From Chrysochromulina tobinii (Eukaryota), in contig JWZX01003403.1 of assembly GCA_001275005.1 (NCBI GenBank), positions 1 to 49,895 on the forward strand: a DNA stretch of 49,895 nucleotides. Reading direction: 5' to 3'. The number at the start of each line of letters is the position of its first letter. Position 1 is the first letter of the stretch. Both the position numbers and the translations under genes were made by a program. Positions 20,662-36,156 of the stretch are shown one piece after another. The notes beneath the pieces were generated by a model, which saw only the letters and a list, made by a program, of their open reading frames with translations, was not told the DNA's origin and did no database searches.

Positions 20662-20689
20662 CGACAGACGCGACAACCGGTGCTACGGC
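20662..20689 (-). promoter_or_regulatory. Dispersed 28-bp upstream element, copy A (upstream of dynein ATG)
   Basis: cgacagacgcgacaaccggtgctacggc is identical to 36129-36156 and to the reverse complement of 30042-30069. Regulatory function is inferred from position only. Confidence 0.6.
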
Positions 20690-20733
20690 ACCTGTGTGAA
20701 TCCCATCTAGTGCTCGGCTTTTCGTCGAAGCTT

Positions 20734-21444
20734 ATGAAGGCGCTTCAGTTCTTCCTCCTATTCGTCTCGACGAGCTACGCCCAGCAAGTGCCGCTCACCG
20801 AGCTAGGACCAATCTCTGTCGCTGCAGACGGCTCGCTGCATCGCATTGCCAACTGGCACGAGCTCACCGAGAACGAGCGAGCTGCCGCGCAGCGTGCGCT
20901 CGCGAAGCGAAATGCAAAACGGCTCGCAAAACTCCAGGAGGCACCACCGCCACGACCGCCTCCTCCATCTCCGCGCGCATCTCTCTGGTTCAAGAATGTC
21001 ACGCGGTGGCTGCGCAGGCAATGGGTGCGCCACCGCCTCGCGCCGCTCGACTTTGCTCCTGAGTACGTGGACTTGATCCGAGGCCACGAGAAGCGCGCCA
21101 CGACACGCTTATGCTCTCGGGATGGCGAGCCCGAGCTAGCGCGCCTGCGGTCTGGGCAGCGCGTGCGTGCTACTTGTCGACGCTGCGGTGGCGCCGCTGG
21201 CGTCGCCTTTGCCATCCTCAAGATCACGAGGGTGGACATGAGCGCGTTTGGCATTCTCGACTTGGAGCTCGCAGCCACGGAAGGCTTTGAGAACGTCGAG
21301 GCTTTCCGGACGGCGCTGCTGGGCTTCTACCCGGGCCTGCACGACGAAACCCCGCTTTCCGTGCTACATTTTGAGCTGCTATCGTCGGAAGGCAAACACG
21401 AGAGCAAAGCTAGCACAGAGCTGCCGAGAGAGAGCTTAGTTTGA
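20734..21444 (+). CDS. Signal peptide + small helical domain + ASCH (PUA-like) domain protein
   Basis: MKALQFFLLFVSTSYA-QQ looks like a signal peptide, followed by LGPISVAADGSLHRIANWHELTENER. The ASCH-like part is LDFAPEYVDLIRGHEKRATTR...LAATEGF...LLGFYPGL...LSVLHFEL (KxxTxR motif plus downstream EGF). Confidence 0.75.
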   Translation: MKALQFFLLFVSTSYAQQVPLTELGPISVAADGSLHRIANWHELTENERAAAQRALAKRNAKRLAKLQEAPPPRPPPPSPRASLWFKNVTRWLRRQWVRHRLAPLDFAPEYVDLIRGHEKRATTRLCSRDGEPELARLRSGQRVRATCRRCGGAAGVAFAILKITRVDMSAFGILDLELAATEGFENVEAFRTALLGFYPGLHDETPLSVLHFELLSSEGKHESKASTELPRESLV

Positions 21445-21706
21445 CGAATGACGAGATTATCAAATATTCTGACAAGGGAGTTCGCTAGCACTCTTTAGGA
21501 TGTTCGTCAGAGCGGGGGGACCGGGGGGACCGCGACGAAACACATGGAAACAGGAATGATTGTCGCCGAACTTGGCCCCGAAACTCGTGCGTCCCCTCGA
21601 GGCAAAAGGGACCTGCAAAAGACGTCTTGAGGCCAGTCCGAAACGGAGGCGCACTTGGGGCGGGACGCTCAGGAAGTCCCACTACATCACCACGAAGAAT
21701 ATTCGC

Positions 21707-24700
21707 ATGGCCACCCTGATCGACCTGAGCCTAGACACCGACGAGCCGGAAGCCGAGCAGCAGGGAGTCCTGTTTGTGGAAGGACGTAACGAGCCTATCA
21801 AGTTTCCTATCCACCTCGGCCCAGCAAATGCATTGCGAGAGGCGGGGGCTTTTCTTGACGCATGACCTGTATGACATGGATGACAACGAATATCGACGGC
21901 CGCTTCCTGAGTCTCAGCAGAGGTGGGTGCTAGCCTCGCGCGGCACATCAACAATCGTGGGAAGCTGCGTGGCCGCGTGCACATCTGCTCCACCCCGCGC
22001 CTGCTCCACCTGCTCCTTTAGCGTATTGAGCGCCACCTCCTTCTAACAGGGGCCTCGACATGTACGTAGCCAAGGCTCGTACTGTCGGGGGGTCCGGACA
22101 TGCAGCTCAAGCAGCTGTGTCCGGAGGAAGCTCTTCATCCAGTGCGAGCGCCACTCCGCCAGGCAGCACCATCAAGTCGACAGTTCGCATCCCACCGAGC
22201 GTCGAGGTCACGACGAATACGGTGCGTGGCATCTTTACCGTTCGCCAAGCCCTCGGAGAGATTTTTGACAACCCGATCGGTGCGCCGCTGCTACGCACTC
22301 GCGCTCGCACGCAGCTGCGCGACACGCACTTGGGCCCCCACTCGTTTTCTGCACGCATTCGCACCCCAGCACCTCTCCGGTGCCCCGCTCGCTTTGCGCA
22401 GCGTCCCGCCCCTCTATCCACTCAACCTAGCGTGCTCTGCACCTCCCTTGCGCGCAGAGCACGTCATTCGTCGCTGTCAAGAGGATTGCCCTCCGCATTA
22501 TGAGCCGAGGATCGTCCTCCAGATCCATCCAGAGACACTTCGGGAAGAGATCATTCTCAAAGATGGATCTACAGAGGTCCACGACTTCCCCAACGGCCTC
22601 CGAATGCTCGACAATGGAAAGGGCCTCGACGCCGCCGCGTTACTTAATTGGGCCAAAGATGGCAAGTCGCACTCCGCAAAGACGGTGCGCTGCCGACGAC
22701 AAGAGCGTGTGGGGGGGGCACGGCCTGATGAAGCCCTCTCCTCAGCTCAGCCTTCTCGGTGGCTGGCCTGCTCACCTGATGGCCGAGCTCATCAGCTCAC
22801 CTGCTGACCGGGCTCGCGTGTGCCTCGCCCTCGCAGCGCGCCGTCGACGTGCGCCACCGCTCCTTCTTCTCAGGCGCGCTTGGGGAGTATGGCGTGGGCG
22901 AAAAGGGCGGGAGCGCGCGCCTCGCCGACGAGACGGGGCGTGTGCGTAAGGTGTCTGGGCCGCTCCAGCAACTGTGCTCGATTGAGAAGCAAGAGTACGC
23001 GACAATGAAGCAGAAGGACGAGAGCTGGAACCCTAGCGCTCACGATCACCTCAAGTACCGCAACTTCCGCGAGCCCGCGATCGAGGAGGTAATGAGCCGC
23101 TATGCGGGATGGGGCGAGCTCATCACGTGCCTCGAGGTGGCGTCCCTTGCCAAGGAGGCGCTCACGTCGTTGAGCGACCTCGACGGACTCGCCAACGAGC
23201 TCTGCCAGCTCTACTATCCCTTCCTTGTGCCCCGCCCTGGATCGGAGACGGCGGAGGCGCAACATCTGGATCACCGGCTGCTCGAGCACCTACTGCCGCT
23301 CCCTGCTGACTGCCTTTCCGATTGGCAATCACTGCCGATGATCCATGTGTCGATCGAGGTCTGGACGCACGGGCGGTTGGTGAGTCTCATCAATCTTAAC
23401 GAGCGCATCCTTGAAGAGGGATACATCTCCAAACTCTTCAACGCTCGCCAAATGGCGGCCGCGGCGTGCGCGGCGGAGCCCGCAGCTGGCTCCTCTTCGA
23501 CACAGCGTGAGGGGCCTCCATCGCTCCAGAACAAGTTCATCCGGGGGGTGTACACCGCCGGTGACAAGAAGGGCTCGTACTTGCTTTGTGCGACCTACTA
23601 CCCATACTCGAGGGGGCAGCCCTCGATACCTGACTGTGGGGAGACTGAGCTAGGTGGCTCCTTCGACGTGATGCTCAATGGGCGGCGCCTCCTCGGTGAA
23701 GACCTCAAGACGCTCCCGTTTTGCGAGAGCGAGCAGGCCCGCATGCTGCTCCAAGCGCAGGGGGTACAGCCCAGCCTCATCAAGGATATTCCGGCGGCGG
23801 TCTGGGGCCGCTGGCACGGCACTCTCTGGCTCAAGGGAGATTGGCCGTTGGACAACTCCAAAGCGTACCTGAAGCACGGCAAGGCGGCGCAACAAGGCGA
23901 CGACAAGGCATCTCTGCTCGTCAAGGAGCTCAAGCAGAAGTACGTCAAGGACAAGGGCAGCGCCACTGCGAGGAGCTCTGGCGGCGGCTCGTCGTCGTCG
24001 TCGATGCCACGCCAGTCCCCGCAGACCATTCGCTCTAAGGAGGTGGAGCTGCAGGACAGGGCGCTTGAGTTCTGTAAGTGGCTAGATGAGTGCCACCGCC
24101 ACTACGACGACGAGGTCGAGTTCCTGTACGACGCTGGGGACGTCGAGCTGGACAAAGAGCGCCCCGGTGACGTCATCTGCCATGGTATCCGACTCAAGGG
24201 CAAGGAGATCAAGGCGCGCAGCAACCGCGCAGGTGGAGGCTCGACGGCGCGCGACAAGGGCATGGCCGTCAAGATCAAGGAGAACCCACGGCTAGTCTCG
24301 AGCGCGACGATCTGGGGTGAGTGTGTCGGCTTCGTCTTCTCCGATAGCTCGATCAACGTGCGCTGGGAGTCCGATCGTCCGATCATCGAAGGCGGCGTGC
24401 AGCGACTGCAAGAGGCGTGCCGGCAGGCGACTACTGGCAAGGTGCGGATCAAACGGATCACGTCGACTCCGCCGCCCGTGCCTGATGACGTGGAGCCGGA
24501 GGAGTTTGAGATCACGTCGATCTTCGACTACCCGAATTCCACGCAGGTCGCGCAGCACTGCCAAGCGACGCAAAGACAGCTGGACAAGCAGAAGCCGAAG
24601 GAGATCTGCTTCAATGACGAGGTCGACAGGTCCCGATACAACTTCTTGCCGCTCACGCGCGACAAGCACGAGAAGGTGGTGCCTCTGCCGCTCGCCCTCG

Positions 24701-35061: not shown

Positions 35062-35094
<33 letters not shown>

Positions 35095-36021
35095 GCTGCT
35101 GCTGCTGCTGCTGCTCGTGGTGGTGGTGCTCCTGCTCGCCCCAGGCGCCGCCTCCTCGCTCAGCTCCTCGCTCAGCTCCTCGCCTTCCAAATGAAGAAGG
35201 GTCTCTCCACCAACAAAGCCGTCCGTCAGGTAGAGGAGCACGGACAGATGCGAGATCCGATCTCCGGCCGACCACGCCCACTGCCCGCGCGCGGCTGACG
35301 AGTACTTCCATCCGTCGCTTCGCATCTTCGACTCGCAGCCGTCGACGCCAATTTCGAGGCGGCTGCCGGGCCAGACCTCATCATAATGGGCCTTAAAGGC
35401 GTCTTTGCCGTCGCTCTCGTACCGATAGATGCGGCTGCGAGCGGACAGGCCGGCGATCACGTACTCGCCCGTCGGCGCACCCTCTACCAGCCGAATCCAA
35501 GGCGGTGTGCCTCCCGACGACTCGAGCCACTCGAGTGTGGGTGCGGGTGTACCAGGAGCGTGGATGGCGATGGTCCATGGGAGATGAGGCACGAGGCGCT
35601 TGAGGAGCTGAAGCTCGAGCTCTGCGTGCAGCACCCAAGAGAGAGCGCCATTCTGGCGCTCCTTTTCCGCATCTGCGGCGCGCTCGAACCCCATCGAGTC
35701 CGCCACAGCCACCATCCGTGCGGCCTCCGCAGCTGAAATGACGTTGTTCAGGAAGAATGCCGAGCGAGCGGTACCTAGATCTTGACGAGTGCTGACTGGT
35801 CCGACCTCGTCCAGCTTGAACCAAGGAGCGCACCACATGTTTGCGTATGGCGTTGCCTCATTGGATGCGCTCAGTACCTTCACAGGCACCTCAGCCGCGT
35901 TCATCGACAATGACCTTGCTTGACCATGAAGGGTCAGACGAGTCAGGCAACTGGCGGAACTGGGCACACGCAGACCATGTGCTAATGAGATGGCGAAGGC
36001 CCCAAGAAGAGTGCCCATCAT
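34678..36021 (-). CDS. 2OG-Fe(II) oxygenase (P4H-like), probably plastid-targeted
   Basis: RIYRY...FKAHYD, VLLYLTDGFVGGET, LLHEG, KYVLRTD (HxD...H...R). N-terminus MMGTLLGAFAISLAHGL is followed by an S/R-rich transit-like stretch. Confidence 0.85.
35063..35113. repeat. (CTG)n microsatellite encoding poly-Ser inside the oxygenase
   Basis: (ctg)10 ccg (ctg)6, read directly. Confidence 0.9.
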
Positions 36022-36128
36022 TTCAAAGAATTCCTTGCAGGGAGAGAGGGGCCGATTGGGCCGCAGATTTCTCCGAGGTGTTGTCGGTTGAGGAATTCGA
36101 TACTTTGTCCGTGTGAGCTTTATAAACA

Positions 36129-36156
36129 CGACAGACGCGACAACCGGTGCTACGGC
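36129..36156 (-). promoter_or_regulatory. Dispersed 28-bp upstream element, copy C (upstream of 2OG oxygenase ATG)
   Basis: Identical core to copy A; the flank ctgtt..tgcccgctc is shared with copy B. Confidence 0.6.

What the first reader, a model, noticed from the sequence alone, without database searches (positions are those of the whole stretch)
20662..36156. Identical 28-bp element upstream of three unrelated genes, always in the same orientation
Seen in sequence: GCCGTAGCACCGGTTGTCGCGTCTGTCG, read on the strand of the downstream gene, occurs without mismatch at three sites. These are 20662-20689 (~155 nt before the dynein ATG), 30042-30069 (42 nt before the FKBP ATG) and 36129-36156 (~107 nt before the 2OG oxygenase ATG). 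Flanks extend the similarity to ~55 nt: gagcgggca..aacag in B and C, gttaacgtt.acac in A and B. Copy A also lies 44 nt before the ASCH ATG in the opposite orientation. Inference: 28 invariant bp is too long for a single typical TF site. Options are a composite core-promoter module, the end of a tiny promoter-targeting mobile element, or a genomically encoded or retro-inserted leader sequence (spliced-leader relic). Three copies in 16 kb suggests high genome-wide abundance.
Basis: partly seen in the sequence, partly recalled or inferred. Interest (0 to 1): 0.8.

Follow-up and report, generated by a model that had tools for sequence, protein, structure and literature searches.

The report
Retrotransposon 3' stubs beside algal genes
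The repeated 28 bases are part of the tail of a mobile retroelement whose short stubs were likely pasted in by reverse transcription at many places between the genes of an alga (likely Chrysochromulina); such stubs are ordinary, but the element's protein family is unusual in lacking the zinc knuckle that related elements keep.

Summary
The three identical 28-mers are real (0 expected by chance). A metagenome scan gave 97 distinct sites. Copies share one fixed 3' end and start at variable 5' points (median length 55 nt, longest 297). Target-site duplications starting with CAC are enriched (>=7 nt: 16 of 84 against 3.3 shuffled). The longest copies run into the end of a reading frame; the 28-mer lies 31 nt after its stop, inside a 69-nt 3' UTR. 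The family's C-terminal domain is predicted to fold like the R2 endonuclease region (Z 8.6). A 1,174-aa relative matches R2 proteins end to end (E 9e-12). So these are 5'-truncated stubs of an RLE-type non-LTR retrotransposon. They are unlikely to be a spliced leader: RNA contigs of FKBP, dynein and ASCH stop short of the element (a weak hint). Same-strand placement upstream of genes is a real bias (34 of 50; 17 of 19 within 300 nt), not a rule. Unusual features of the lineage: no CCHC knuckle (0 of 19), no aromatic residue in the RT xADD motif (12 of 12), and a canonical E-x-K. Clade placement, the family's own RT core and any promoter role are untested.

The parts
20652..20695 (-). Copy A: 44-nt 3' stub of the retrotransposon (holds the 28-mer at 20662-20689), intact 3' end
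20693..20700 (-). Copy A, 5'-side copy of an 8-nt target-site duplication (TTCACACA)
20646..20653 (-). Copy A, 3'-side copy of the 8-nt duplication (its first two letters overlap the element's end)
30012..30079 (+). Copy B: 68-nt 3' stub (28-mer at 30042-30069)
29997..30003 (+). Copy B, possible 5'-side duplication TTTACAC (partner 30078-30084); weak, 8 nt from the aligned start and only 4 nt in the anchored test
36125..36176 (-). Copy C: 52-nt 3' stub (28-mer at 36129-36156) with an altered last 9 nt
36177..36182 (-). Copy C, 5'-side copy of a 6-nt duplication CACACG (partner 36110-36115)
6834..20507 (-). Neighbour: dynein heavy chain, one 4,557-aa ORF; RNA contigs end at 20555-20571, short of copy A
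20734..21444 (+). Neighbour: ASCH-domain gene, divergent from dynein across copy A
30112..30661 (+). Neighbour: FKBP gene with a 70-nt GT..AG intron between 30411 and 30482; RNA contigs begin at 30105-30110, after copy B
34678..36021 (-). Neighbour: 447-aa ORF downstream of copy C; no Pfam hit, 2OG label unconfirmed

Best explanation
The 28-mer is part of the 69-nt 3' UTR that follows a retrotransposon-type reading frame, and the three window copies are short 3' stubs that were likely inserted by target-primed reverse transcription of an RLE-type (R2/CRE-like) non-LTR retrotransposon. Shown: a fixed 3' end, ragged 5' ends, an excess of short duplications starting with CAC, and continuity of the longest copies into the ORF end. 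Predicted: the ORF's C-terminal domain is a PD-(D/E)xK endonuclease, and full-length relatives are zinc finger-RT-endonuclease proteins shaped like R2. Inferred mechanism: the protein nicks at a short CA-rich motif (CAC-A/G-C), primes cDNA synthesis at the RNA's 3' end, and usually stops after about 40-100 nt; staggered second-strand cleavage leaves a 5-10-nt duplication. The copies are identical most simply because the family is young and every stub must contain the 3' end. The lean towards gene starts likely comes from where the target motif and accessible non-coding DNA lie, plus loss of insertions in coding sequence.
For: 97 distinct sites. 78 of 97 align to the last base of the reference 3' end; column conservation is >=0.80 to +39 and <=0.37 from +42; 5' extension is 0-260 nt. 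Median length 55 nt. Anchored duplications >=7 nt at 16 of 84 sites against 3.3 shuffled (max 9.4); >=6 nt at 26 against 9.9. P0130 maps by tblastn to 13 of 123 loci, 90-97% identical in L107, just before the UTR. P0138 model (pLDDT 92.9): best matches R2Tg Z 8.6 (rmsd 4.1, 166 aligned) and R2Bm Z 8.3 among 48,161 chains. P0122 model (pLDDT 85): top seven Foldseek hits are R2 proteins, best E 9e-12 over 1,158 columns. RH 52-55 of 57, D of PD 70 of 71, E 78 of 80, K 74 of 80; RT aspartates invariant. Atlas features point to RVT_1 clusters, score 0.94. Stubs interrupt a second repeat that also occurs uninterrupted.
Against: No orthologous empty site was found among the 123 loci or in the runs laid. 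22 of 84 sites show no anchored duplication, and 6 of the 16 long ones lie in tandem units of the second repeat. The RT catalytic core of this exact family was not retrieved; it is read from relatives 30-66% identical to P0130. No Pfam RT or endonuclease hit in any protein scanned and no PDB sequence hit. Foldseek alone gave no hit at E<=0.001 for the endonuclease domain, and Z 8.6 is only modestly above the tool's stated background of 7-8. The CCHC knuckle expected in RLE elements is absent. The test for a promoter-side excess of the target motif was not significant (p 0.057; 5 against 7 in the window).
Confidence: 0.93

Rival explanations
1. Same origin, but the stubs have been co-opted as a shared core-promoter or enhancer module and are kept by selection upstream of genes.
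For: The nearest gene on the 3' side is on the same strand at 34 of 50 sites (p 0.015) and 17 of 19 within 300 nt at the stricter threshold (23 of 29 at the looser); on the 5' side 28 of 51 point away. A cruder ATG-ORF count agrees: 45 against 26 of 74 within 150 nt. Copies A and B end about 80 and 26-31 nt before the RNA contig ends. 71 of 97 sites keep the full 28-mer.
Against: 16 of 50 sites have the 3'-side gene pointing towards them. The 3' versus 5' side difference is significant in only one of four settings (Fisher p 0.024-0.22). Sites were selected by an exact 20-mer, so high identity is partly built in. Neighbouring genes are unrelated, and many copies nest in other repeats.
Confidence: 0.12
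2. A spliced leader or its retro-inserted relic, added to mRNA 5' ends by trans-splicing.
For: Fixed 3' boundary, frequent sense position before an ATG, and a first 8 nt that resemble the dinoflagellate leader (recalled, not from a call).
Against: The shared sequence extends up to 260 nt 5' into a protein-coding end. It has duplications on both sides. FKBP contigs in 3 of 3 RNA runs and dynein and ASCH contigs in 4 of 4 stop short of the element with no loose end (contigs only, a weak hint by the tool's own note). No Rfam hit in the window.
Confidence: 0.02
3. A Helitron 3' end or a miniature inverted-repeat DNA transposon.
For: A small hairpin overlaps the 28-mer, and copy A has a CTAG 14 nt beyond it on the + strand. 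One site (L027/L066) has two copies facing each other.
Against: The CTAG is not shared by B or C. Folding z-scores are -0.9 to +1.2. The fixed end is on the other side, duplications vary in length, there are no terminal inverted repeats at other sites, and the linked ORF is RT-endonuclease type.
Confidence: 0.02
4. A non-autonomous SINE that borrows the retrotransposon's 3' end.
For: 78 of 97 copies are 100 nt or shorter.
Against: 5' starts form a continuous series with no shared head, and the longest copies run straight into the ORF end.
Confidence: 0.03

Closest known systems
R2 retrotransposons (R2Bm, R2Tg; PDB 8GH6, 9DOU)
   Same: Single ORF with N-terminal zinc fingers, RT and C-terminal restriction-like endonuclease; best structural matches for both models; precise 3' and variable 5' ends.
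   Different: Not in rDNA but dispersed at a short CA-rich motif. No CCHC knuckle (0 of 19). Lysine in the canonical (D/E)xK position, whereas PMC5678591 (passages) places it far away in LINE RLEs. About 10% sequence identity.
CRE clade (CRE1/2, SLACS, CZAR, MoTeR, FoTeR)
   Same: RH(N) helix followed by PD and an acidic residue 11 positions later, close to the consensus RHD/N...R/KPD-X12-14-D/E given in PMC12857005 (passages); truncated copies outnumber full ones.
   Different: The CCHC part of that consensus is missing; R/K before PD is replaced (H-V-P-D); no multicopy target such as leader genes or telomeres. Clade placement was not tested by phylogeny.
HERO / Togen and weakened Utopia families
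   Same: RLE elements with loose or microsatellite-type target preference (PMC4640811, passages).
   Different: Utopia is described with a C-terminal zinc finger; relationship to this family not tested.
Spliced leaders and their genomic relics (dinoflagellates; recalled)
   Same: Short shared sequence before unrelated genes.
   Different: Here the shared sequence is a 3' UTR with flanking duplications and is not seen at the 5' ends of three neighbouring transcripts.
Prp8 RT-linker-endonuclease
   Same: Endonuclease-like domain preceded by a knuckle without zinc (PMC5678591, passages); weak structural hits Z 5.5-6.0.
   Different: Prp8 is a domesticated, non-mobile protein; the Z values are in the background range and show no special kinship.

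Membership tests
Non-LTR retrotransposon (TPRT) | Fixed 3' end with variable 5' truncation | tested here: met
   78 of 97 reach the reference 3' end; 5' extension 0-260 nt
Non-LTR retrotransposon (TPRT) | Target-site duplications of variable length | tested here: met
   >=7 nt at 16 of 84 against 3.3 shuffled; 22 of 84 show none; 13 of 97 sites not testable
Non-LTR retrotransposon (TPRT) | ORF with a reverse transcriptase domain in the same element | tested here: inconclusive
   Met in relatives 42-45% identical to P0130; the family's own longest piece (P0130) begins after the catalytic motif; no Pfam RVT_1
Non-LTR retrotransposon (TPRT) | Empty orthologous sites | tested here: inconclusive
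   None found; paralogous empty sites exist in a second repeat
RLE-type LINEs (R2/CRE groups) | C-terminal PD-(D/E)xK restriction-like endonuclease with RH helix | tested here: met
   Motif conservation; model matches the R2 C-terminal region, Z 8.6 and 8.3; activity not tested
RLE-type LINEs (R2/CRE groups) | Single ORF, N-terminal zinc finger(s), RT, then RLE | tested here: met
   P0123, P0124, P0164, P0179 by sequence (zinc-finger Pfam hits only weak); P0122 by fold. Shown in relatives, not in a full copy of this family
RLE-type LINEs (R2/CRE groups) | CCHC zinc knuckle before the RLE | tested here: not met
   0 of 19 rows parsed (of 91 in the alignment) have the pattern; alignment columns show G-D-x-x-x-N instead
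CRE clade | RT phylogeny groups with CRE/SLACS/MoTeR | not testable with these tools
   No reference CRE proteins could be fetched; Repbase is not available
CRE clade | REL consensus C..C..H..C-RHD/N..E..R/KPD-X12-14-D/E | tested here: not met
   RHN and PD..E present (spacing 11); cysteines and R/K absent
CRE clade / R2 | Site-specific insertion in a multicopy host repeat | tested here: not met
   About 97 unrelated sites; only a CAC(A/G)C preference and a hot spot in a second repeat
Spliced leader | Present at the 5' end of mature mRNAs | tested here: not met
Spliced leader | Short exon with a fixed 5' start | tested here: not met
   Continuous 5' extension into an ORF
Helitron | 3' hairpin plus CTRR end, no duplication | tested here: not met
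   CTAG only beside copy A; no significant fold; duplications present
MITE | Terminal inverted repeats and fixed length | tested here: not met
   Lengths 37-297 nt, one fixed end only
SINE | Shared Pol III-derived 5' head | tested here: not met
   No shared head in the aligned copies; no tRNA scan was run on the loci

The most novel reading that the evidence does not exclude
A large, undescribed lineage of RLE retrotransposons that works without the CCHC zinc knuckle, with a non-aromatic xADD polymerase motif and a canonical PD-(D/E)xK site. Its Chrysochromulina family homes to a CA-rich motif just upstream of transcription starts and has stamped the same 45-nt module, sense-wise, into hundreds of promoters, where it now sets or tunes transcription. 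The lineage part alone I put at about 0.55 (motifs shown; absence from Repbase unchecked); the promoter function is the uncertain part.
Probability: 0.1. Interest if true: 0.65.

Novelty: new variant of a known kind. Interest (0 to 1): 0.3.

Why it matters
As posed, the finding dissolves into a familiar thing: truncated LINE ends. Three points keep modest value. (1) The parent proteins form a large family (1,198 representatives at 50% clustering) that Pfam misses and that departs from RLE elements at three motifs usually described as conserved. R2-type proteins are being developed as gene-insertion tools (PMC13188248, abstract start), so a knuckle-free natural variant bears on what that knuckle does. 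(2) A median stub of 55 nt among the copies sampled points to very early termination, which could be tested against the odd RT motif. (3) Stubs sit close to transcript starts and have been absorbed into public gene models (P0032, P0093), which matters for Chrysochromulina annotation and offers a ready test of promoter effects.

Tried and rejected
No whole genome is held, so copy number and a true genome-wide null are lacking. Viral contigs: 0 matches for the 20-mer and no relative of P0130. Rfam: 0 hits in the window. RNA folding of the copies: not better than shuffles. Pfam: no significant hit in 10, 6 and 8 element proteins. PDB sequence searches: nothing for P0015, only two chance INCENP rows at E 1.1 for the profile. 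Foldseek on the endonuclease model: nothing at E<=0.001; the weak rows were influenza PA endonuclease. Atlas search with P0130: mostly unnamed clusters, one RVT_1 set at rank 8. A first, stricter gene-strand caller resolved few sites (19 of 24 and 20 of 30) and was replaced. Strand bias of the CA motif near gene starts: not significant. Summed DNA depth at copy B (83,294 against 38; 282 contigs) is not a copy number and is used only as 'many copies'. No cover of 29600-29995 in RNA runs is not used as evidence. Earlier-findings searches returned nothing. Literature: no paper held both 'Chrysochromulina' and 'non-LTR retrotransposon' or all of haptophyte/non-LTR/CRE/LINE/Emiliania; the listings showed no description of this family. 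Repbase, most subscription papers and all supplements were not seen, so it may be catalogued there.
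Full report
Observation. The 28-mer is present exactly as stated at three places, with none expected by chance and no fourth copy under 10 mismatches. The distances to the neighbouring ATGs are right. Pfam supports dynein, ASCH and FKBP; the ORF beside copy C has no hit. 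The window is GC-rich (0.59-0.71) and eukaryotic (a GT..AG intron in FKBP). Two public proteins carrying a piece of the element are named Chrysochromulina tobinii by their source, and that genome is 63.4% GC and 59 Mb (PMC4580454, passages). The host is therefore inferred to be C. tobinii or a close relative; I did not test the window's genes against it directly. No whole genome was available.

More copies. With the window, 128 matches collapsed to 97 distinct sites; two pairs (L001/L103, L011/L053) later proved to share flanks, so the true count is about 95. All were selected by the exact 20-mer, so diverged and very short copies are under-counted.

Anatomy. Against a real long copy (L107), 78 of 97 sites align to the last reference base and 6 more to within one base. 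Conservation stays at 0.80 or above to position +39 and falls to 0.37 or below from +42. The 5' extension runs continuously from 0 to 260 nt. Median length is 55 nt; 78 of 97 are 100 nt or shorter. An anchored test on 84 of 97 sites (13 lacked an anchor or flank) found duplications of 7 nt or more at 16 sites against 3.3 in 2,000 shuffled pairings (max 9.4), and of 6 or more at 26 against 9.9; 22 sites had none. Six of the 16 lie in tandem units of a second repeat; ten do not. The sequence after the element starts CAC at 79 of 84 (the anchor required CA plus C or T), then mostly A or G, then C. In the window, copy A has an 8-nt and copy C a 6-nt duplication; copy B's is weak.

The parent. The longest copies run 5' into the end of a reading frame. 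Its stop lies 69 nt before the fixed end, and the 28-mer starts 31 nt after the stop. A protein search with these fragments gave 153 hits, among them P0015, 455 aa at 91% identity. P0130 (619 aa, same cluster) maps back to 13 of 123 loci at up to 97% identity. Long relatives of 936-1,944 aa were found. They show N-terminal Cys/His fingers, RT-type motifs and a C-terminal RH..PD..ExK domain. Pfam and PDB sequence searches did not recognise them. Structure did: the model of P0122 matches R2 proteins first (E 9e-12, 1,158 columns), then LINE-1 and group II intron RTs. The model of the family's own C-terminal 265 residues matches the R2 endonuclease region best (Z 8.6 and 8.3; next 6.6), though Foldseek alone found nothing significant for it. 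Atlas features for the RT region point to RVT_1 clusters. The catalytic RT core of this exact family was not recovered; the nearest piece holding it, P0152, is 66% identical to P0130 over 223 residues.

Departures from known RLE elements. The CCHC knuckle is described as highly conserved in RLE LINEs (PMC5678591, passages) and is part of the CRE/SLACS consensus (PMC12857005, passages). It is absent in 19 of 19 rows parsed, and the aligned columns hold no conserved cysteine. The RT motif reads xADD with x = T, D, V, M or L in 12 of the 12 rows that cover it (of 44), never Y or F; that an aromatic residue is usual there is recalled. The lysine sits two residues after the glutamate in 74 of 80 rows, whereas PMC5678591 places it far away in LINE RLEs. 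So the element works like an R2/CRE-type retrotransposon, but I do not file it in CRE or R2: one defining motif fails and phylogeny could not be run.

Mobility. No orthologous empty site was found. A second repeat occurs in 17 of 94 representative loci. Some of its copies are uninterrupted (L055) and others carry a stub at the matching CACAC units (L010, L031, L038, L070, L091), which amounts to a paralogous empty site. Median identity to the reference is 97.7%, inflated by the way the sites were selected.

Relation to genes. A coding-strand caller gave the right strand for all 8 window genes checked, 7 of them left out of training. The nearest gene on the 3' side runs away on the same strand at 34 of 50 sites (p 0.015) and 17 of 19 within 300 nt; at the looser threshold 45 of 65 and 23 of 29. 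On the 5' side, 28 of 51 point away (p 0.58). The two sides differ significantly in one of four settings. A cruder ATG-ORF count gave 45 against 26 of 74 (p 0.003). The bias is real but partial. The CA motif leaned to the sense strand before starts (26:17) and the other way after stops (18:29), p 0.057, and was flat in the window alone; a targeting explanation is therefore suggested, not shown.

RNA. FKBP contigs begin at 30105-30110 in 3 of 3 RNA runs, 26-31 nt after copy B ends, with no loose end. Dynein contigs end at 20555-20571 and ASCH contigs begin at 20724-20768 in 4 of 4 runs, none reaching copy A. These are assembled contigs, which the tool rates as a weak hint, but they agree across studies and go against a leader. 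Other RNA-run contigs do end in copies of the element with different flanks, so some copies elsewhere may be transcribed.

Literature. Ten searches found no description of this family (listings and abstract starts only). I read passages of PMC12857005, PMC4838377, PMC5029228, PMC4580454, PMC5753468, PMC4640811, PMC5678591, PMC13188248 and PMC5963040, no whole texts and no supplements. The C. tobin genome paper has no occurrence of 'transpos' in its main text; the Tisochrysis study reports only L1/Tx1-like LINEs. Repbase was not available, so the family may be catalogued there.

Verdict. Ordinary in kind: young, severely 5'-truncated stubs of an RLE-type retrotransposon (confidence 0.93). The parent lineage is a variant worth a note, and promoter co-option remains a minority possibility (about 0.1). 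Interest 0.3.

Noticed in passing
L055 (1521-1687), also L010, L018, L029, L031, L038, L059, L070, L091; 17 of 94 representative loci: A second dispersed repeat of up to about 167 nt with one fixed end at an ACCGGT site and a variable other end, likely another retroposon stub in the opposite orientation. In L055 it sits inside the first element with a 13-nt duplication, while elsewhere the first element sits inside it: the two families insert into each other. Not found in the window.
   Followed up: partly
P0032 (N-terminus) and P0093 (C-terminus): Two public C. tobinii gene models (an oxidoreductase, a BEACH protein) include the retrotransposon's ORF end in frame: either annotation errors or real exon capture.
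   Followed up: no
L027:1037-1095 and L066:1501-1559: Two copies joined tail to tail at one site, forming a near-perfect inverted repeat; tandem copies also occur in L026, L030, L049 and L086.
   Followed up: partly
window 6834-20507: The dynein heavy chain is one uninterrupted 4,557-aa ORF (13.7 kb with no intron), well covered by RNA contigs at its 5' end.
   Followed up: no
window 23005-29103 (+): A 2,032-aa ORF with no Pfam hit; its coding signal begins near 22800.
   Followed up: no
window 31750-33288 (-): A 2OG-Fe(II) oxygenase fused to WW and ShK domains.
   Followed up: no
window 46260-46505 and 44382-44554: Short tandem arrays with 62-nt and about 42-nt units next to the Thoc5 and ketoacyl-synthase genes.
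   Followed up: no
window 42442-43098: An imperfect inverted repeat (arms about 200 nt, 72% alike) upstream of the ketoacyl-synthase gene, possibly an old DNA-transposon remnant.
   Followed up: no
L002, L030, L083, L084: Runs of a 5-nt TTGAC-type tandem repeat beside several copies of the element.
   Followed up: no
window 48096-49868 (-): A leucine-rich-repeat protein with many near-identical internal DNA repeats.
   Followed up: no
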